This document shows, piece by piece, positions 4,047 through 62,185 of a DNA stretch of 64,000 bases (positions within the stretch are counted from its first letter, which is position 1; every line of letters begins with the position of its first letter). The stretch comes from a virus: positions 32,001 to 96,000 of IMG/VR virus record IMGVR_UViG_3300044475_000063. One strand, written 5' to 3'. A program made the translations under genes and the position numbers. The notes beneath the pieces are model-generated. The model worked only from the letters and a program-made list of their open reading frames with translations. It did no database searches and was not told the origin of the DNA.

Positions 4047-4271
4047 GCACTGTCTGAATTGACTAGCCTATCGTCGGGAACGAAAGCAACAGGGCGATAG
4101 CGTGAATACTGGAACTGTGGCAAAGCAAGGGAAGCACCAGAATGAGGCGTCGAAGATAGCACCTCACTTGCGCAAGGCTGTCGGGTCAGCGATTCCTCAA
4201 TGGATACGTTGTGATGGGCCTTAGCTAAGTCTAGGTCCGCTCAAACCTCTTGGATAATACGAAAGATAAGA

Positions 4272-9086: not shown

Positions 9087-9509
9087 ATGGCACTTACTCC
9101 AAAGCAAGCACTATTCGTCAAAGAATACCTAATCGACCTGAATGCAACTCAGGCCGCGATTCGTGCTGGTTATTCGGAAAAGACGGCTTACTCTATTGGT
9201 GAAGAAAACCTGAAGAAGCCTGAAATTGCAGAGGCGATTGCCGAGCATCAACAGGCCAAGGCAAAGAAGCTAGATATCACTGTTGATACGATACTTGCGG
9301 AGCTTGAGGAAGCGCGTCAATTGGCTCTAGAAACTGGTAAGGCTGGCCCAGCAGTTCAGGCTTCGATGGGTAAGGCAAAGATTTTAGGTTTGGAAAAGCA
9401 AGTCATCGATCATACATCTAGCGATGGCACTATGACGCCTAAAGCGCCTATCGTTGTTGACAAGGATACTGCTGCGCAGGTGGCGGCGAATATCAATGGT
9501 GGCATCTGA
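9087..9509 (+). CDS. terS: terminase small subunit (Terminase_2/P27-like)
   Basis: LTPKQALFVKEYLIDLNATQAAIRAGYSEKTAYSIGEENLKKPEI signature. Immediately upstream of TerL. Confidence 0.85.
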   Translation: MALTPKQALFVKEYLIDLNATQAAIRAGYSEKTAYSIGEENLKKPEIAEAIAEHQQAKAKKLDITVDTILAELEEARQLALETGKAGPAVQASMGKAKILGLEKQVIDHTSSDGTMTPKAPIVVDKDTAAQVAANINGGI

Positions 9510-10926
9510 CGACCCAGAGGTAATCAAGGCAGTAACTCGCGCACTATGCCTTGAGGATCACCTATTCTTTACTCGCTACTTCTTTAAGCTGCGCGAGGGG
9601 ATTAAATTCCGCGTCAACTGGCACCATAAGCGCATGGCTGAGGCTATCCAGCGCGTGATTGATGGGCATTGCAAGCGGCTAATCATCAATGTGCCTCCTG
9701 GCTCGTCTAAGACGGAAATGGCGGTTATTAACCTGATTGCGCGTGGGCTTGCGATTAATCCTCGTGCGCGCTTCCTGCACCTATCGTACTCTGCTGACCT
9801 TGCCGAACTGAATAGCGCCAAGGCAAAGGAGCTAATCACGTCCAGCGAGTATCAAGAGTTATTCACGATCCCGATTAAGACCGACTCCAAGGCGCGGGGC
9901 CGCTGGAACGTGGTTGATGAAAAAGGCGTGTCTATCGGCGGATGCTATGCGACCTCGACGCTTGGTCAGGTAACTGGCTTTCGTGCCGGTCACATGGCTG
10001 ATGGGTTTCAGGGCGCGATCATCATCGATGATCCATTAAAGCCTGTAGACAGCCTATCAAAGACCAAGCGCGATGCAGTCAACAATGCCTTTATCAATAC
10101 CGTGCAGAGCCGCAAGGCATCGCCTGATACTCCTATCATCGTCATCATGCAACGCCTCGCAGACGAGGATTTAACGGGCTTCCTGTTGAATGGCGGCGAC
10201 GGCAAAGAGTGGGAGCATGTTTGCATCCCAGCTATTGACGACGATTCCGGCAAGAGCTATTGGCCTGAGAAAGAGCCTATCGAATCGCTCTTGCAACTTA
10301 AGGAAAAGGGTAACTTCACCTTTGAGGGGCAGTACCAGCAGCGACCATATGTGCTAGGTGGTGAAATTATCAGGGGCGAATGGTTCGGGCGCTATAGCGA
10401 ACTGCCGCCGCAGAAATGGTGTGTGCAGCGCGCCGTATTCGCTGATACAGCCATGAAAACAGGCGAGCAGAACGACTACACGGTATTTATTGATGCCGCG
10501 CTCTATACCGATGGCAAGGTACGTATCCTTAACCTATGGCGCAAGAAAGTGAATGCCGTGGGCCTTCTTCAATTAGCCAAAGAGGTTTGGGCCTCGACAG
10601 AAGGGCTAGCTAGCGCCATGTACATTGAAGACAAGGCATCTGGCACCGGCCTAATCCAGCAGCTACAGGAAAACGACGTATTTATCCCGGTTATCCCAAT
10701 CGAGCGCACCAAAGACAAGCTAACCCGCGTCATGGAAGTGCAGCCAAGGATTCAGGCTGGCGGCGTTTTGCTGCCTACCTATGCGCCTTGGGTAACTGAG
10801 TTCATTAGCGAATGTGAGGCATTCACTGCAAACGATAGCCATAAACACGATGACCAAGTAGACCCGCTTGTAGATGCTGTAAATACGTTCATGGCTAACA
10901 GTTTCAACCTATCAGCCTTGGTTTAG
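9496..10926 (+). CDS. terL: terminase large subunit
   Basis: Walker-A-like VPPGSSKTE, IIIDDP Walker B, C-terminal nuclease region. Start at MVASDD overlapping the terS end. Unrelated to the copy B TerL. Confidence 0.85.
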   Translation: MVASDDPEVIKAVTRALCLEDHLFFTRYFFKLREGIKFRVNWHHKRMAEAIQRVIDGHCKRLIINVPPGSSKTEMAVINLIARGLAINPRARFLHLSYSADLAELNSAKAKELITSSEYQELFTIPIKTDSKARGRWNVVDEKGVSIGGCYATSTLGQVTGFRAGHMADGFQGAIIIDDPLKPVDSLSKTKRDAVNNAFINTVQSRKASPDTPIIVIMQRLADEDLTGFLLNGGDGKEWEHVCIPAIDDDSGKSYWPEKEPIESLLQLKEKGNFTFEGQYQQRPYVLGGEIIRGEWFGRYSELPPQKWCVQRAVFADTAMKTGEQNDYTVFIDAALYTDGKVRILNLWRKKVNAVGLLQLAKEVWASTEGLASAMYIEDKASGTGLIQQLQENDVFIPVIPIERTKDKLTRVMEVQPRIQAGGVLLPTYAPWVTEFISECEAFTANDSHKHDDQVDPLVDAVNTFMANSFNLSALV

Positions 10927-41435: not shown

Positions 41436-42938
41436 TTATTCCGCTGGCTTGGCGGCGAGAGCGCGGATAGCCATTGCCTGTTCGGTGAAGGTCACGATGC
41501 CTTGATCGGCCTGATAGTCCTCGATAGTACGCGCCGCTTCCTCAATCCCGGCAGCGCGGCCCTTGGCGAACGCCTCGTCGCGTTCAGCCATCAGCCCGTG
41601 CGTTACCTTGCAGGCTTGCTCATTGGCGCGACGCATGCCTGCCTCGAATGCCTGGCTCAGCGCATCGCCCTGTGCGACAGGTGGCACCTTCCATGCCAGC
41701 GTGTACTTGCCGCATGCGCTTTGTTGCGCTTTCATCATCTCGCCAGGCTTAATATTTACGGGGATTACCCCGGTAACGAAGTTGCCATTGCTATCTGGCC
41801 AGCCACCATTTTCGGCAACGTGGATTTCTACACCGGCCGGTGGCGCATCACCCTGACAAGCACCAGCGTCAACCGCTTTCTGCTTCCAGTATTTGATTTC
41901 CGCCCTGGCGTCCGAAAGCCGTAGATCGGCCAGCGCATCACCCTGCGCGGTGGATGACTGGGCGGAAAACTTCGACACAACGGCTGCTGCTGCGTGAATA
42001 GCGCCGTTGAACGCAAAGCGCTTGTCCGGCGTCATCGAAGGATCAGGCTTTATCGCCAACACAGCGGCGTGAATAGCCTTCGCATCTACTGGTGCTACAT
42101 CTGCCTTCGCTTTCAGCCGCTCAATCTCCCGGCGCACGATGCCCAGCGCGGCGAACTCGTACCCTGTCAGATCGCCATCCGGCACACACGATTGCAGGCC
42201 CAGCAGGTCAACGATGCTGCGCAGGCGCGCGGTGGCGTCGACGTCCCAGGCTGGCGCTGTCTCAGTCTCGCCCCCGGTAAAGTCGGCCGGCTCCCACATG
42301 CCGGGGAGTTCTTCGGCTGGCGCTGCATCTGCTGGGGGATGGGCGGCTTCCAGTTCCCATTCACCGTACATGCCGCCTGTTCCGTTTTCACCAACCACGT
42401 TGTAAGGTTTAGTTTGGTCAGGGTAGATGCGTTGAATCACCCCTTCTCGCTTAAAACTATCCGTGGTTATTACTCGATCCCCGGCAGAGAACTTCATAGC
42501 AACACCTGCCTGCTTGGAGGATGCTGTCACATCAGCGGCTACAGGCGCGGCGGCTGGCTGTGGGGAGGCGACAGTGAGAATCTGACTAGGGACAACCTGA
42601 GACGATGAAGTATCTCCGTCTGCGCGCACTTGATAAAAAATGTGCGGTCGCTTGTCCTTGCTCCAACGGGTTTCAGATTTCGTGATGATGCCGCCGTAAA
42701 TGTGGCCAAACTCGTTGCGTACCTCTACCCTGTCTCCCTTATAAAATGATGGAATTCCTTCCGGCACCGCCACTGTCGGCACGCTGGCTACTGGCGCGGA
42801 CTGGCGGGTGGCGGCGATGGCGCGGGCGAACGCTCGGTAGTTCTCGACGCCGCCCAGCGCTGCATACGGCTCAGCAATCACATCGATCTGCTCGTCGCTC
42901 AGCCCTTGAATGTCTTTGTTCGTTTCCATGGTGGTCAT
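41436..42938 (-). CDS. large hypothetical early protein (500 aa), multi-module paralog-family member
   Basis: Contains LSDEQIDVIAEPYAALGG...FARAIAA and an internal GMWEPADFTGGETE. Confidence 0.65.
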   Translation of the reverse strand: MTTMETNKDIQGLSDEQIDVIAEPYAALGGVENYRAFARAIAATRQSAPVASVPTVAVPEGIPSFYKGDRVEVRNEFGHIYGGIITKSETRWSKDKRPHIFYQVRADGDTSSSQVVPSQILTVASPQPAAAPVAADVTASSKQAGVAMKFSAGDRVITTDSFKREGVIQRIYPDQTKPYNVVGENGTGGMYGEWELEAAHPPADAAPAEELPGMWEPADFTGGETETAPAWDVDATARLRSIVDLLGLQSCVPDGDLTGYEFAALGIVRREIERLKAKADVAPVDAKAIHAAVLAIKPDPSMTPDKRFAFNGAIHAAAAVVSKFSAQSSTAQGDALADLRLSDARAEIKYWKQKAVDAGACQGDAPPAGVEIHVAENGGWPDSNGNFVTGVIPVNIKPGEMMKAQQSACGKYTLAWKVPPVAQGDALSQAFEAGMRRANEQACKVTHGLMAERDEAFAKGRAAGIEEAARTIEDYQADQGIVTFTEQAMAIRALAAKPAE

Positions 42939-58234: not shown

Positions 58235-58376
58235 AATTAAGTGTTGTATTTTTGCACTAGCGTTGACTTTGAATAATGGTTAAGGCATCATTACTACATC
58301 GAGCACCACTTTCCAGATAGGACTGGGTTCAAGCAACTTCCGCGCTGGCGAAGTGAAAGGCCAGCAAAAGATCAAA

Positions 58377-58534: not shown

Positions 58535-58539
58535 AGAAT

Positions 58540-58672
58540 TAGCGAAGGCAGATAGCCATGAATGAAAGCGCATGCGCAAGTAGTCATGCTGGCATACTGG
58601 AAGTAGCTAAAGCAAAGCCGCTGATGCGTTATGAGGAATTGCGCCACACAGTTCAAAACTGCGGCATGTGGT
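58540..58672 (+). ncRNA. structured RNA module M1 (copy B)
   Basis: Conserved with 8575-8708. The hairpin loop changes (CGGA to CAAA) while the stems are kept. Confidence 0.4.
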
Positions 58673-58680
58673 AAGATTAT

Positions 58681-58909
58681 GGGCCTGTGGCTGAGAGGAA
58701 AAGCACTCCTAATAATGGAAGGAGACAGGTAAAACTGATTTTCAAGTCGAAAGTTTTGCATGGTACACGGTTTGCAGAAGCACCTATAGCGGCCTGATTC
58801 AGGTGGCGGTTAAACAGCAAGGGAAGCGCGTTTCCAAGCTATGCAAAAGCTAGTAGTAATGCACTAGTACATGAAAATTACATGGGTTCAATTCCCATCA
58901 GGTCCACCA
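58681..58909 (+). ncRNA. tRNA-like RNA with ~150-nt insertion at the variable-arm position
   Basis: Acceptor GGGCCTG/CAGGTCC + A + CCA, D-arm GCT-GAGAGGAAA-AGC, stem CTCCT/AGGAG with 9-nt loop AATAATGGA, T-arm ATGGG-TTCAATT-CCCAT. 229 nt in total. Confidence 0.45.
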
Positions 58910-59150
58910 GTTGCAAGAATAGTAGTTGTAAGAGCCAATGCGAGACCCTGCGCGATCAACCTGCCCGGAGCAGGTTCCGTAAGGAAGGGGTGGCAGACCG
59001 GAAAGACGGTCACTGAATAGCAGTAGTGACGAGAGGACGTGGCAACCGCACGTTTGGCGAAGTTTGCTAATTCGGGACAGGCAACTGAAACATTGGAGTC
59101 ATGACCAATGGAACCAAGAGCTAAAACCTGATTACGTGGTTGACTAATTT
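58910..59150 (+). ncRNA. structured RNA module M3 (copy B only)
   Basis: No ORF. Local hairpins CCTGC-CCGGA-GCAGG, TTCC-GTAA-GGAA, GACCG-GAAAGA-CGGTC, GTCACT-N10-AGTGAC, CGTG-N7-CACG. Confidence 0.35.
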
Positions 59151-59159
59151 TGAATAGTT

Positions 59160-59428
59160 GGGCCGATACCGCAGGGGCGCTCGGGCCAATAAACGCCCCA
59201 GCATAAGCGCCGTCCTCCTTTCCCCAGCTATCGCTAGTGGGCGCAACAAGTAATTAGGCGTGATTATGCAGAGCCAAGTTAAGGGCGCATAGCGTGGAAG
59301 CCGCTAGTAGTTTTGTCTCGCAAGAGACGCCACAAGAAAGCCGATTTGTGAGATACGTGGTATATCAGCGCCCTCATAAGATGAAGTCCCTTGGTTCGAT
59401 TCCGAGGACAAGTCGGCCTCCTTGTGGC
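59160..59428 (+). ncRNA. structured RNA module M2 (copy B) with a tRNA-sized minihelix at its 3' end
   Basis: 5' part conserved with 8719-8890. Helix 59329-59344/59413-59428 encloses 59340-59417, which has a 10-bp acceptor-like stem stacked on T-arm CCTTGG-TTCGATT-CCGAGG. Confidence 0.45.
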
Positions 59429-59460
59429 CCCTACTATAAAACTGTAGGAATATAGATGGT

Positions 59461-59974
59461 GCATAATTCAATTGACGAATTGAATGTATGCCGAATGGTT
59501 CACGAAACGAGCCATTACATATCATCGGCAGCACGGAAGGACGTGGGTAAGCGCTGCAAATAGTCGGCAGAGAGATTGCGGCAATCCTAGGTGATTTGCT
59601 CTCATCATGCCAAGTTAGGTATCAAGCCCTAGCCCGATGATCTGTAATAAAGATTGGATGATGCCGGTCGTTACACGCCTGACTCTCGTTATAGAGTCAC
59701 TACACGCATGCTGATTGATAGGGATGGATACGTAGAACTGGACGCAGGGGCTATCCATAGAGTCTAGGCCTTGACCTAGAGCGCAAACTCCCCTAACTAC
59801 GATATTAGTCAGCAGTCGTGTGGTGCAATGCGGAGGCTGATCCGCGAAGCGTTCTATGAGTCCGATTGATTACCGGGATACTCGCAGGTTGGCTAGGCTT
59901 CGCGGGCCTAAACTTTAGCGCAGAATAATGCCAACAAAGCCAGAGTTCAGCACTGGCCACCACTTCAGTTTCAT
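59461..59974 (+). ncRNA. large structured RNA candidate P (unknown class), paralog of 47105-47685
   Basis: Helix 59521-59528/59634-59641. Blocks at 59527-59545, 59616-59636 and 59947-59963 are identical to blocks in the minus-strand copy. No ORF. Confidence 0.5.
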
Positions 59975-60052
59975 GCCAAGAGTAGCTCAACGGTTAGAGC
60001 GACGGATTAATAACCCGGATTATGCTGGTTCGATTCCAGCCTCGCGGCACCA
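59975..60052 (+). pseudogene. degenerate tRNA-like element ending in CCA
   Basis: D-arm GCTC-AACGGTTA-GAGC and T-arm GCTGG-TTCGATT-CCAGC are good. The acceptor has 2 mismatches and the anticodon stem has only 3 bp (loop TTAATAA). Confidence 0.4.
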
Positions 60053-60074
60053 GTTCTTTCCCGCAGCACCTTTC

Positions 60075-60102
60075 GCCCTGAATCCTATCAGGGCGTTTTT
60101 TT
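60075..60102 (+). terminator. rho-independent terminator closing the RNA island
   Basis: GCCCTGA-ATCCTA-TCAGGGC followed by GTTTTTTT. Confidence 0.8.
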
Positions 60103-60176: not shown

Positions 60177-60755
60177 ATGGGACGAAAATCAGCACTCACG
60201 CCCGAGCAATGGGCAACCGTACAGCACCGCCATATCGTAGGCGGTGAATCTATTCGCATGCTTGCAAAAGAGTTCGGAGTCAACGAATCATCCATGCGCC
60301 GCAAGATCGGGCCTAAAGTGGTTGAGGCTGGCGAGACAGAGGACTTGCGAGAGCTAGCAGGGCGAAAAGCAAGAATCGACAGCGAGGCAAAGCGTATCAG
60401 CGCAGAGATTGAAGCGTTGCCGATTGCTAAGCAAATGATTGTTTCCGATCTGGCGCGTAAGCTGGGTGCGATCACAATGCACCTAAGCTCGTCAGGCGAA
60501 TATATGTCCTCATTGGTTCATCGCGTTACTGGTATTGCTTGCGGGCTATCCGAAAAGATTGATGACGCTGACCCAATGAAAAGCATTGACGTGCTTAAGC
60601 AAATTTCAAGCTTGGTTCACCTTGCTAACGAATCCTCGCAAATTCCTATGAACTTGATTAAGGCGAATAAGGAAACGATTGACGCTATGAGCGAAGCAGC
60701 AGAAGGCAATAGCTCGCGCCCAACAGCGCCGGTCTATCAGATCGTCCACGAATGA
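60177..60755 (+). CDS. terS: terminase small subunit (HTH type), unrelated to copy A TerS
   Basis: N-terminal HTH (ESIRMLAKEFGVNESSMRRKI), coiled-coil middle. Overlaps the TerL start. Confidence 0.65.
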   Translation: MGRKSALTPEQWATVQHRHIVGGESIRMLAKEFGVNESSMRRKIGPKVVEAGETEDLRELAGRKARIDSEAKRISAEIEALPIAKQMIVSDLARKLGAITMHLSSSGEYMSSLVHRVTGIACGLSEKIDDADPMKSIDVLKQISSLVHLANESSQIPMNLIKANKETIDAMSEAAEGNSSRPTAPVYQIVHE

Positions 60756-62185
60756 GCGCTATTGAGATTTTCCCGGCGTATGAGGAATATCTGCAGCCGG
60801 CTCGCTTCAAGGTTGCATACGGCGGGCGCGGATCGGCTAAAACGCGCACATTCGTAACCATTCTTCTAAGCAACGTCCTGCATTTTGGCTGGCGAGTTGT
60901 TGCTTTTAGGGAGTTAATGGAAAGCATCGAGGACTCAGTTTATCAAGAAGTGGTTGCAGAGATTACGCGCCGCGAGTGGGATAAATGGTTTGACGTGCTT
61001 AAGACAGAGATTCGCTGTCCTGTCAGCGGTGGTGTATTCAAGTTCTCAGGCATTAAATCGAGCGCTAAGCGCCTCAACAGCCAAAAGCTTAAGGGTTTCT
61101 CAGACTTTGATGCCGCATGGCTGGAGGAGGCCAATCCTGTGTCTGTCGAGTCATGGAATGCGCTCATTCCTACCATGCGTAAGCCGGGTTCAGAAATTTT
61201 CGTATCCTTTAACCCGGAAAACCCACTTGAGGAAACCTATAAGCGGTTTGTGACTGAGCGCAAATACCCTGATTACTTGGGTGGAAAGCGCTATTGCATA
61301 GTCAAAAAGCTGAATTACGATGCAAACCCGCGATTCCCTCAAGAGTTGCGCGACGACATGGAGTTAATGAAGGCGACGGACTTTGAAATGTACCGTCACG
61401 TCTATTTGGGTGAGCCTGTGAGCAATTCTGACTTGTCGATCATCAAGCCGATATGGATTGAAGCGGCAATGGATGCGCACCTGCACATTGCGGACTTCCC
61501 TATGGGAGGCGGCAAGATCGGCGGATTTGACGTATCTGGAGGCGTTGAGGGGGATATTGCAACACCCAAGGCAAACGATCCAAACGCCTTTGCATGGCGT
61601 CATGGCTGCATCCTGCAATCGCTTGAGGAATGGCATGACGAAGACCCTAATCGCGCCGCTGCGACGTGTTATGAGCATGCATATCGCTCTCAAGTGGACA
61701 CGCTCAATATTGACGATATTGGCGTTGGTGCCTCTGTTCCTGGCGAACTAAGGCGCTTGCAGGGCGAAGCCTATGCAAAGAGCGTTAAGATCAAGCAGAT
61801 CAATTTCCACGGCTGGACAGCATCCGAAGGACCGCAAGACCCTGATGCAGAGTACATGCCGGGTAAAACGAACTTTGATATGTTCGCCAACCTCAAGGCG
61901 CAGGGATGGGGAACGCTGGCAGATCGCTTTAGGGCAACTTGGCAAGCGCGTAACGGTCTGCCATACGACAAAGACAAGCTAATCAGCCTGCCTAGTGGTT
62001 TGTCTCTTGTTGACAAGCTTAAGGCAGAACTAGCCCAGCCGCGACGCGAGATTATCAATGGACGATTCAAGGTAGAAGGCAAGAAAAAGCTCAAAGAGCG
62101 CGGCATCCCATCGCACAACTTGGCCGATGCGGTTGTTATGGCATTTGCGCCGGGTGATAGCTTTGATCTATCAGCACTGATATGA
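60752..62185 (+). CDS. terL: terminase large subunit (PBSX/XtmB-like), unrelated to copy A TerL
   Basis: Walker A YGGRGSAKT near the N-terminus, DAAWLEEA Walker B. 477 aa directly upstream of the portal. Confidence 0.8.
   Translation: MSAIEIFPAYEEYLQPARFKVAYGGRGSAKTRTFVTILLSNVLHFGWRVVAFRELMESIEDSVYQEVVAEITRREWDKWFDVLKTEIRCPVSGGVFKFSGIKSSAKRLNSQKLKGFSDFDAAWLEEANPVSVESWNALIPTMRKPGSEIFVSFNPENPLEETYKRFVTERKYPDYLGGKRYCIVKKLNYDANPRFPQELRDDMELMKATDFEMYRHVYLGEPVSNSDLSIIKPIWIEAAMDAHLHIADFPMGGGKIGGFDVSGGVEGDIATPKANDPNAFAWRHGCILQSLEEWHDEDPNRAAATCYEHAYRSQVDTLNIDDIGVGASVPGELRRLQGEAYAKSVKIKQINFHGWTASEGPQDPDAEYMPGKTNFDMFANLKAQGWGTLADRFRATWQARNGLPYDKDKLISLPSGLSLVDKLKAELAQPRREIINGRFKVEGKKKLKERGIPSHNLADAVVMAFAPGDSFDLSALI

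What the first reader, a model, noticed from the sequence alone, without database searches (positions are those of the whole stretch)
58681..58909. tRNA-shaped RNA with a 9-nt anticodon-position loop and a ~150-nt structured insertion where the variable arm belongs
The ends form a good 7-bp acceptor (GGGCCTG/CAGGTCC, one G-U) followed by A and an encoded CCA. A class-II-like D-arm (GCT/AGC), a 5-bp stem CTCCT/AGGAG and a canonical T-arm (ATGGG-TTCAATT-CCCAT) are present. However, the loop on the anticodon stem is AATAATGGA (9 nt). About 150 nt of hairpin-rich sequence lie between that stem and the T-arm. This is not an anticodon-loop intron, because both halves of the anticodon stem are adjacent. 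A tRNA scaffold carrying a large insertion recalls tRNAs embedded in large phage RNAs, tRNA-like domains of Y/YrlA RNAs, and decoys for tRNA-targeting defence nucleases. None of these can be established from sequence alone.
Basis: seen in the sequence. Interest (0 to 1): 0.6.

Follow-up and report, generated by a model that had tools for sequence, protein, structure and literature searches.

The report
tRNA-shaped phage RNA, giant extra arm
This 229-base stretch is a real phage gene for an RNA shaped like a transfer RNA that cannot read codons and carries a large conserved extra domain; it belongs to an uncatalogued RNA family that, in several bacteria, lies in RNA-repair (rsr-rtcB) operons.

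Summary
The stretch has a 7-bp acceptor stem with G3:U70, A73 and an encoded CCA. It also has a D arm, a 5-bp stem with a 9-nt loop, about 155 nt of structured insert, and a canonical T arm.

It is not a chance fold. I collected 61 relatives from phage and metagenome contigs, Ralstonia phage RSP15 and bacterial chromosomes. All helices covary.

The insert sits in the variable-arm position. It is a three-way junction: P5; P6 enclosing a near-invariant core; and the P8 hairpin. The 'anticodon' loop is 9-20 nt, opens with a conserved A-rich run, and cannot decode.

- It is not a tmRNA. It has no conserved reading frame, scores below the Rfam threshold, and its bacterial carriers have a canonical tmRNA elsewhere.
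- It is not an intron-containing tRNA.
- It matches no Rfam 15 family.

In seven bacterial genomes of three lineages, family members lie 1-4 kb upstream of rsr (Ro60) and rtcB on the same strand, often inside tRNA arrays. This phage, four other carrier phages and several bacterial carriers have no detectable Ro60.

Best reading: a non-decoding tRNA mimic acting as a scaffold, linked to tRNA damage and repair. Its function is unproven. Earlier windows of this scan noted the same family on other DNA.

The parts
58681..58687 (+). Acceptor stem, 5' strand (GGGCCTG). It pairs with 58899-58905, and the third pair is G:U.
   Evidence: All 7 pairs covary across 61 members, with 96.7% of cells paired. 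Position 3:70 is G:U in 33 of 61.
58690..58704 (+). D arm (GCT / GAGAGGAAA / AGC), with the GG in the loop.
   Evidence: All 3 pairs show changes on both sides, with 97.8% of cells paired.
58706..58724 (+). Anticodon-position arm: stem CTCCT/AGGAG with the 9-nt loop AATAATGGA (58711-58719).
   Evidence: The stem covaries (helix 3, 84.8% paired). In relatives the loop is 9-20 nt and starts AAAA(A)C(G). It has no U33 and no 7-nt format.
58726..58737 (+). P4 mini-hairpin: CAG-GTAAAA-CTG.
   Evidence: All 3 pairs covary, with 94.6% paired. The loop GUAAMA is conserved in the phage-type members.
58738..58744 (+). P5, 5' strand (ATTTTCA). It pairs with 58872-58878 and is the base of the giant variable-arm domain.
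   Evidence: Helix 6: all 6 modelled pairs show changes on both sides, with 80.4% paired. On the unfitted alignment 62.7% pair.
58746..58753 (+). Junction element GTCGAAAG, which reads as a C-GNRA-G mini-hairpin.
   Evidence: CGNAAG is present in 32 of 68 members. The Deinococcus forms have a longer GNRA-capped hairpin here. In the window it also fits the YrlA motif GNCGAAN0-1G, but only 6 of 68 members do.
58754..58761 (+). P6, 5' strand (TTTTGCAT). It pairs with 58841-58848 and closes the conserved core.
   Evidence: Helix 7: all 8 pairs show changes on both sides.
58769..58838 (+). Conserved core. In order: GG(58769-70)...TTTGCAGAAGCACCTATAGCGGCC, a variable hairpin (58793-58803), then AAACAGCAAGGGAAGCGCGTTTCCAAG.
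   Evidence: These are the most conserved blocks of the family. The internal hairpin covaries (helix 10, 99% paired). A second core type, with partly compensating changes, occurs in rsr-linked Deinococcota copies. The two motifs are invariant in my main sample partly by construction, because the search pattern required them.
58841..58848 (+). P6, 3' strand (ATGCAAAA).
   Evidence: See the P6 5' strand entry.
58850..58867 (+). P8 hairpin: CTAGT-AGTAATGC-ACTAG.
   Evidence: The stem covaries (helix 11, 88% paired). The loop AGUARUG is conserved in phage-type members. The hairpin is absent from the short Deinococcus forms.
58872..58878 (+). P5, 3' strand (TGAAAAT).
   Evidence: See the P5 5' strand entry.
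58882..58898 (+). T arm: ATGGG-TTCAATT-CCCAT.
   Evidence: 99.7% of cells paired. The GTTCRANYC loop is conserved.
58899..58909 (+). Acceptor stem 3' strand (CAGGTCC), discriminator A, and encoded CCA.
   Evidence: Seen directly in the sequence. A73 is present in 52 of 61 members and an encoded CCA in 41 of 61.

Best explanation
This is a genuine, single-copy RNA gene of a roughly 49-kb phage unit. It belongs to a widespread, uncatalogued family of 183-290-nt tRNA-shaped RNAs.

Shown here:
- a complete tRNA body: acceptor stem, D arm, T arm and A73-CCA;
- a conserved, over-long, A-rich loop in the anticodon position that cannot decode;
- a covarying three-way-junction domain (P5; P6 with a conserved core; P8) in the variable-arm position;
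- a location inside the phage's tRNA cluster, upstream of the terminase gene.

Inferred:
- It is transcribed with the neighbouring tRNAs and released by RNase P and 3'-end tRNA processing.
- Its G3:U70/A73/CCA end makes it a plausible AlaRS substrate.
- It does not take part in decoding. It acts as a tRNA mimic and protein-docking scaffold. The tRNA body gives stability and entry to tRNA enzymes. The extra domain binds a partner from the tRNA damage, surveillance and repair machinery.
- The most likely partner is a Ro60/Rsr-RtcB-type system supplied by the host, by analogy with Y RNAs.
For: - Family and structure: 61 members with strong covariation in every helix.
- The loop does not decode: 9-20 nt, beginning AAAA(A)C(G).
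- Genomic setting: tRNA-Arg, tRNA-Gly and tRNA-Ile flank it in the window, with a terminator at 60074. Relatives sit in dense tRNA arrays.
- Link to rsr-rtcB: members lie 1-4 kb upstream of rsr on the same strand in G003 and G248 (Trueperaceae type), G004 (Fibrobacteria) and G245, G257, G206 and G217 (variant core). rtcB follows rsr in G003 and G004, and in the related locus L213. This meets the criterion Chen et al. 2014 used for Y RNA candidates (PMC4201824).
- Alanine-type end: G3:U70 in 33 of 61 members, always together with A73.
- Precedent: tRNA-like Y RNAs, and the predicted b7a-tRNA of RtcB operons (PMC4201824; bioRxiv 10.1101/312249).
Against: - No TROVE/Ro60 gene is detectable in this phage or in four other carrier phage records. 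Only one of the five has RtcB.
- None is detectable in the Variovorax and Achromobacter carriers, or in five Deinococcota carriers.
- Seven Deinococcus copies of the main core type lie far from rsr.
- The rsr link could be a by-product of the RNA travelling with tRNA arrays that happen to precede rsr.
- The YrlA Ro-binding motif is not conserved: 6 of 68 members.
- No protein neighbour is conserved across the loci.
- There are no expression, processing or charging data. No RNA run holds the stretch.
Confidence: 0.4

Rival explanations
1. It is a decoy or sponge for tRNA-targeting enzymes, such as anticodon nucleases or other tRNA-directed defences or toxins. It would be expressed with the phage's spare tRNAs to protect translation.
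For: It always travels with tRNA arrays in phages and mobile elements. It has a full tRNA body. In bacteria it sits in operons thought to answer tRNA damage (10.1101/312249).
Against: The loop in the anticodon position resembles no real anticodon loop. A decoy would not obviously need a 120-nt conserved extra domain. No defence or nuclease gene is linked to it.
Confidence: 0.15
2. The tRNA frame is only a processing and stability scaffold. The conserved core is an autonomous functional RNA, for example a ligand or protein aptamer or a small ribozyme, unrelated to Ro60 or RNA repair.
For: The core has very high sequence conservation, with GNRA loops and A-rich loops typical of compact tertiary folds. 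Many carriers lack Ro60.
Against: No Rfam riboswitch or ribozyme family matches at E up to 10. The D arm, the T arm and the acceptor identity are themselves conserved beyond what a mere scaffold needs.
Confidence: 0.2
3. It is a miniature tmRNA-like, alanine-charged RNA that enters stalled ribosomes.
For: G3:U70, A73 and CCA are present. Rfam tmRNA gives a sub-threshold hit of 25.6 bits. The window reads GCA GAA GCA CCT ATA GCG GCC TGA (AEAPIAA-stop), with the stop in a hairpin loop.
Against: - The Rfam alignment uses an internal CGGCCTG (58790) as its 5' strand, which does not fit relatives such as L053.
- The frame is not conserved. In this frame the stop lies 0 to about 20 codons downstream of the shared GCG GCC in other members, and indels are not multiples of three.
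- Twenty-eight of 61 members lack G3:U70.
- Four bacterial carriers have a canonical tmRNA elsewhere, at 160-188 bits.
- tmRNA has no D stem and no anticodon arm.
Confidence: 0.08
4. It is a tRNA (Ile-AAU, as ARAGORN suggests) interrupted by a new kind of intron that is excised to give a working tRNA.
For: ARAGORN in relaxed intron mode calls tRNA-Ile(aat) with a 132-nt intron. P5 would bring the insert's two ends together.
Against: - The loop is 9-20 nt and its sequence is conserved as AAAA(A)C(G). It is not a set of anticodons, and it has no U33.
- There is no group I or group II signature in Rfam.
- Removing the insert would still leave the non-decoding loop.
- The insert is the most conserved part of the gene.
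Confidence: 0.03

Closest known systems
YrlA / bacterial Y RNAs bound by Ro60 (Rsr) (Rfam RF02553; Chen et al. 2014, PMC4201824)
   Same: Both are non-decoding tRNA mimics with D-like and T-like arms. Both are encoded within a few kb upstream of rsr on the same strand, next to rtcB in some species, and both also occur in phages. M. smegmatis YrlA is cut by RNase P and receives CCA.
   Different: - YrlA is circularly permuted. Its ends lie in the Ro-binding stem at the anticodon position, and its acceptor stem is a closed stem-loop.
- Here the ends are a normal acceptor stem with CCA, an anticodon-like arm is kept, and the large domain sits in the variable-arm position.
- The GNCGAAN0-1G motif is not conserved (6 of 68 members).
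- There is no Rfam YrlA hit.
- Most carriers, including this phage, lack Ro60.
tmRNA (Rfam RF00023)
   Same: Both have a tRNA-like acceptor stem and T arm with G3:U70, A73 and CCA. In both, a large structured body emerges roughly where a class-II variable arm would. Both occur in some phages.
   Different: This RNA has no conserved tag reading frame and no pseudoknot series. It is 229 nt rather than about 360. It has a real D stem and an anticodon-position arm. It scores 25.6 bits against the cut-off of 47. Its bacterial carriers have a separate canonical tmRNA.
Class II tRNAs (Ser, Leu, Tyr, Sec) and tRNA-Ala
   Same: The cloverleaf has a 3-bp D stem and an extra arm between the anticodon and T arms. 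The acceptor stem carries the tRNA-Ala identity set.
   Different: The extra arm region is about 155 nt with a three-way junction, instead of at most about 25 nt. The anticodon loop is 9-20 nt and does not decode.
b7a-tRNA (band-7-associated tRNA) predicted by Burroughs and Aravind 2016, as described in bioRxiv 10.1101/312249
   Same: Both are tRNA-like RNAs predicted to be part of RtcB RNA-repair gene neighbourhoods, occasionally next to rsr.
   Different: b7a-tRNA is described as strongly resembling an authentic tRNA and as linked to a Band-7 protein. I saw no Band-7 gene in the flanks I scanned. The original paper was not available to me, so identity could not be tested.
Group I intron-containing bacterial tRNAs
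   Same: Both are tRNA genes interrupted by a structured insert of more than 100 nt.
   Different: Those inserts lie in the anticodon loop, have group I cores and are spliced out. This insert lies in the variable region, has no Rfam intron match, and is the conserved functional-looking part of the gene.

Membership tests
tRNA (RF00005) | Cloverleaf with a 7-bp acceptor stem, a D arm, a T arm with a GTTCRANYC loop, and a discriminator plus CCA | tested here: met
   Seen in the sequence. The helices covary.
tRNA (RF00005) | A 7-nt anticodon loop with U33 and a decodable anticodon | tested here: not met
   The loop is 9 nt here (AATAATGGA) and 9-20 nt in relatives, with a conserved AAAA(A)C(G) start.
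tRNA (RF00005) | Recognised by tRNA detectors (Rfam gathering score, default ARAGORN) | tested here: not met
   The Rfam tRNA model gives no hit over the stretch even at E up to 10. ARAGORN calls it only in relaxed intron mode.
tmRNA (RF00023) | Score at or above the Rfam gathering threshold of 47 bits | tested here: not met
   The score is 25.6 bits. The alignment covers only the T arm and acceptor stem, and it uses a wrong internal 5' strand.
tmRNA (RF00023) | Alanine identity: G3:U70 with ACCA | tested here: met
   Present in the window. In the family it holds for 33 of 61 members.
tmRNA (RF00023) | A conserved tag-peptide reading frame with a resume codon and a stop | tested here: not met
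   The window's AEAPIAA-stop frame is not kept in RSP15, L053, L038, L049 or the Deinococcus copies. Indels are not multiples of three.
tmRNA (RF00023) | It is the genome's ssrA gene | tested here: not met
   Four bacterial carriers have a canonical tmRNA elsewhere, at 160-188 bits.
YrlA / Y RNA (RF02553) | Encoded within about 4 kb of rsr (a TROVE protein) on the same strand | tested here: not met
   This phage has no TROVE gene. The feature is met by seven bacterial relatives. It is not met by seven Deinococcus copies or by the carriers that lack TROVE.
YrlA / Y RNA (RF02553) | Permuted topology: the 5' and 3' ends lie in the Ro-binding stem and the acceptor stem is closed by a loop | tested here: not met
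   The ends form the acceptor stem with CCA. The YrlA layout is taken from PMC4201824.
YrlA / Y RNA (RF02553) | The Ro-binding motif GNCGAAN0-1G | tested here: inconclusive
   The window has GTCGAAAG at 58746-58753, but only 6 of 68 family members fit the motif.
YrlA / Y RNA (RF02553) | Physical binding to Ro60/Rsr | not testable with these tools
   This needs co-IP, CLIP or EMSA.
Group I intron in a tRNA gene | A group I core, inserted in the anticodon loop | tested here: not met
   There is no Intron_gpI hit at E up to 10. The insert lies after the complete anticodon-position hairpin.

The most novel reading that the evidence does not exclude
The family could be a new class of aminoacylatable, anticodon-less tRNA-like effector RNA. 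On this reading it is an alanine-charged molecule with its own RNA 'anticodon-arm' mimic and a docking domain. It would act directly in rescuing or repairing the translation apparatus after tRNA or ribosome damage, for example as an SmpB-independent A-site entrant or as the RNA cofactor that guides RtcB-type ligation. Phages would carry it inside their tRNA arrays to keep translation running under host attack.
Probability: 0.12. Interest if true: 0.9.

Novelty: new variant of a known kind. Interest (0 to 1): 0.68.

Why it matters
The family is well supported by covariation and is widespread: phage tRNA arrays, Deinococcota, Fibrobacteria and mobile tRNA arrays in Burkholderiales. It is absent from Rfam 15 and from the papers I could search.

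It joins three topics that are usually treated apart: the spare tRNA sets of phages, tRNA mimicry by Y RNAs, and the Rsr-RtcB RNA-repair operon.

It also gives concrete, tractable systems in which to ask what tRNA-like cofactors do in RNA repair and surveillance. These are Ralstonia phage RSP15, named Deinococcus species, and a Trueperaceae operon laid out as RNA, then tRNA-Glu, tRNA-Gln and tRNA-Lys, then rsr and rtcB.

If the alanine identity is functional, this would be a second natural class of chargeable non-decoding tRNA-like RNA, beside tmRNA.

Tried and rejected
1. tmRNA reading. It was rejected for four reasons: the Rfam score is below threshold, the alignment is in the wrong register, the frame is not conserved, and carriers have a canonical tmRNA elsewhere.
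2. Internal alternative 5' end at 58790 (CGGCCTG). This is a coincidence of this copy and does not fit relatives such as L053.
3. Viral scan with the second core motif. It returned mostly an unrelated, abundant phage coding gene and no new members. The scan was wasted.
4. The YrlA motif GNCGAAN0-1G as a family feature. Only 6 of 68 members have it.
5. Ro60 or RtcB in the phage. Pfam TROVE and RtcB searches of the whole 98-kb record found nothing. I looked at a 500-aa ORF with no known family (window 41436-42938, minus strand) as a possible hidden Ro60-like protein. It has no Pfam or PHROG hit, its Atlas model is poor (pTM 0.19), and nothing resembles Ro60.
6. A conserved protein neighbour. All-against-all comparison of ORFs in 54 family loci found none shared beyond close relatives.
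7. BLAST of two other family members against GenBank phages found nothing. Only the window's copy finds RSP15.
8. Expression. No RNA holder is listed for the stretch.
9. Burkholderiales chromosomes. No true member was found in 150 further genomes sampled.
10. Papers. Chen et al. 2000 and Burroughs and Aravind 2016 were not available.

Full report
**What is in the window**

There is a 7-bp acceptor stem, GGGCCTG/CAGGTCC, whose third pair is G:U, followed by A and CCA. There is a 3-bp D stem with a GG-containing loop. A 5-bp stem, CTCCT/AGGAG, carries the 9-nt loop AATAATGGA. About 155 nt follow, then a canonical T arm, ATGGG-TTCAATT-CCCAT.

The stretch lies in an ORF-poor RNA island. tRNA-Arg(UCU) and tRNA-Gly(UCC) lie upstream and tRNA-Ile(AAU) downstream. 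A weak promoter-like site sits at 58263 and a strong terminator at 60074-60095. All of this lies just upstream of the small and large terminase genes and the portal gene.

The record is an IMG/VR phage contig of 98,391 bp. The RNA occurs in it once.

Standard detectors do not call the stretch. Default ARAGORN finds nothing. The Rfam tRNA model gives no hit. Rfam tmRNA gives 25.6 bits against a cut-off of 47. ARAGORN calls 'tRNA-Ile(aat) with a 132-nt intron' only in relaxed intron mode.

**It is a conserved family**

BLAST found an unannotated relative in Ralstonia phage RSP15. Its acceptor stem is completely rewritten (AGTGGAT/ATCCACT) but still pairs.

Pattern scans with the two most conserved core blocks recovered more copies:
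- three further viral contigs, of 113-425 kb;
- 41 metagenome contigs;
- 9 genome contigs: five Deinococcus, a Trueperaceae MAG, a related uncultured MAG, a Fibrobacteria MAG, Variovorax sp. WDL1 and Achromobacter anxifer.

A BLAST survey of 301 Deinococcota genomes added about 20 more. These include a group with a different core.

Because the pattern scans required the two core motifs, the invariance of those motifs in the main sample is partly by construction. The BLAST-derived copies show that they do vary.

**Structure**

From MFE folds of about 19 members and the alignments I derived a common architecture. In order it runs:
- acceptor stem, D arm, and the anticodon-position arm;
- the P4 mini-hairpin (CNG-GUAAMA-CNG);
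- P5, a long-range helix between the segment after P4 and the segment just before the T arm;
- a GNRA-type mini-hairpin at the junction;
- P6, a second long-range helix that encloses the conserved core, GCACCUAUAGCGG, then a hairpin, then UGG..AGCAAGGGAAGCG;
- P8, a hairpin with loop AGUARUG, missing in the short Deinococcus forms;
- T arm, acceptor 3' strand, and usually ACCA.

On a MAFFT alignment that was not fitted to this structure, 81.5% of cells pair, against 35-49% for slid partners. 37 of 55 pairs change on both sides, and no shuffle out of 500 reaches the observed values.

A covariance model (R1) scores the window copy at 223 bits. It separates 61 family members (at least 44.5 bits, 183-290 nt) from ordinary tRNAs (at most 41.6 bits).

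On those 61 members, 89.4% of cells pair against at most 50% when slid, and 48 of 54 pairs show changes on both sides. That alignment is fitted to the model, so it leans towards the structure.

P7, a possible helix AGAAGC/GCGUUU inside the core, is not supported by covariation.

**What it is not**

*Not a decoding tRNA.* The loop is 9-20 nt and begins with a conserved AAAA(A)C(G). It has no U33.

*Not an intron-bearing tRNA.* The insert is the most conserved part. It has no group I signature. Removing it would leave the same non-decoding loop.

*Not a tmRNA.*
- The Rfam alignment borrows an internal CGGCCTG at 58790 as its 5' strand. That does not fit relatives such as L053.
- The attractive frame AEAPIAA-stop in the window is not kept elsewhere, and indels are not multiples of three.
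- Four bacterial carriers have a canonical tmRNA elsewhere, at 160-188 bits.

**Acceptor identity**

G3:U70 is present in 33 of 61 members, and always together with A73. CCA is encoded in 41 of 61. All three occur together in 26 of 61.

By established knowledge of AlaRS, which recognises G3:U70 in the acceptor helix independently of the anticodon, these copies should be chargeable with alanine. That is an inference and was not tested. The 28 members without G3:U70 show that alanylation cannot be universal.

**Genomic company**

In phage and metagenome contigs the RNA sits inside dense tRNA arrays. No protein neighbour is shared across loci.

I tested that lead on my own loci.

Members upstream of rsr, on the same strand:
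- Trueperaceae MAG: RNA, then tRNA-Glu(UUC), tRNA-Gln(UUG) and tRNA-Lys(CUU), then rsr, then rtcB. A related MAG, which appears as locus L213 and as genome G248, shows the same.
- Fibrobacteria MAG: the RNA abuts a TROVE-like ORF, followed by rtcB.
- Four Deinococcota genomes with the variant core: the RNA lies 1-3.6 kb upstream of rsr. In the two loci I examined (L242, L244) it sits inside an array of about 12 tRNAs, with two further long tRNA-like RNAs.

This meets the criterion Chen et al. 2014 used to nominate Y RNAs: within 4 kb of rsr and on the same strand (PMC4201824).

Evidence against an obligate link:
- Seven Deinococcus copies with the main core type lie far from rsr.
- Five Deinococcota carriers show no TROVE gene.
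- The Variovorax and Achromobacter carriers show none.
- None of five carrier phage records, including this one, has TROVE, and only one has RtcB.
- In 150 further Burkholderiales genomes no true member was found, so in that order the RNA is a rare element.

**Comparison with known RNAs**

YrlA and Yrn1 are tRNA mimics bound by Rsr. M. smegmatis YrlA is even cut by RNase P and receives CCA.

YrlA, however, is circularly permuted relative to a tRNA. Its Ro-binding stem sits at the anticodon position. The present family keeps the tRNA order and places its large domain in the variable-arm position.

The YrlA motif GNCGAAN0-1G occurs in the window (GTCGAAAG) but in only 6 of 68 members. The nearly invariant GG..CAGAAGC / GUUU.CC region recalls the bulged GGUCCGA/UUGACC Ro site. 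That resemblance is my own reading and is untested.

A predicted 'b7a-tRNA' of RtcB operons is mentioned in bioRxiv 10.1101/312249. I could not obtain the original description, and I saw no Band-7 gene in the flanks I scanned.

I found no paper describing this family.

**Verdict**

The object is a new, well-supported member of an uncatalogued family of tRNA-shaped RNAs.

The most likely mode of action is a non-decoding tRNA mimic. It would be matured by the tRNA-processing enzymes, and its giant variable-arm domain would dock a partner from the tRNA damage, surveillance and repair machinery. Ro60/Rsr-RtcB is the leading candidate where that operon is present.

The fold, the conservation and the genomic setting are shown. 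Processing, charging, the partner and the benefit to the phage are inferred.

No expression data could be obtained.

Earlier windows of this scan had already noted this same stretch (e1-3635873) and the same family on other DNA (e1-1088969).

Noticed in passing
whole record G000; window 9454-10926 and 60752-62185: The 98-kb 'complete' record looks like two related phage units of about 49.2 kb in tandem. ORFs of matching length recur at that spacing: 595 and 594 aa at genome positions 8787 and 58031, 218 and 218 aa, 310 and 310 aa, 474 and 471 aa. There are two different large ORFs in the terminase position, each just upstream of a portal-sized ORF. Only the one at 60752 was confirmed as terminase by Pfam. 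Only the second unit carries the 229-nt RNA.
   Followed up: partly
window 4066-4186 (+): There is a match above threshold to the Rfam Betaproteobacteria-1 RNA motif (RF02932, 57 bits). This hints at a betaproteobacterial host.
   Followed up: no
window 59975-60052 (+): tRNA-Ile with the unusual anticodon AAU and two mismatched pairs in the acceptor stem (Rfam 47 bits). It sits just before the island's terminator.
   Followed up: no
window 58535-58680 and 58910-59974: The rest of the ORF-free island between the tRNAs is also structured. Earlier notes of the scan describe tandem tRNA-shaped modules there. Model R1 does not hit them.
   Followed up: no
window 41436-42938 (-): A 500-aa ORF with no Pfam or PHROG family. 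Its Atlas model has low confidence (pTM 0.19). It may be disordered, novel, or not a real gene.
   Followed up: partly
L219:2164-2445 (Deinococcus yunweiensis chromosome): The first 22 nt of the RNA gene are duplicated about 71 nt upstream of a second, slightly different 5' end. A DUF4062 gene lies just downstream. This looks like a rearrangement or insertion at the RNA gene, as happens at tRNA and tmRNA genes.
   Followed up: no
L244:774-1000(-), L244:559-715(-), L242:313-541(-): Between the variant-core RNA and rsr lie two other long tRNA-like RNAs, of 227-229 nt and 157 nt. The 227-229-nt RNAs have G3:U70 and end in ACCA; the 157-nt one ends in UCCA. Each has its own large insert. They may correspond to the several Rsr-locus RNAs reported for D. 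radiodurans.
   Followed up: partly
L212:4720-5108: In the Trueperaceae operon the RNA is followed by tRNA-Glu(UUC), tRNA-Gln(UUG) and tRNA-Lys(CUU), directly before rsr and rtcB. From my own knowledge, Glu, Gln and Lys tRNAs are classic targets of anticodon nucleases.
   Followed up: no
L211 (Variovorax sp. WDL1) and L218 (Achromobacter anxifer): The RNA sits inside chromosomal arrays of 25-35 tRNA genes packed into 8 kb. These are presumably mobile tRNA-array units or prophages.
   Followed up: no
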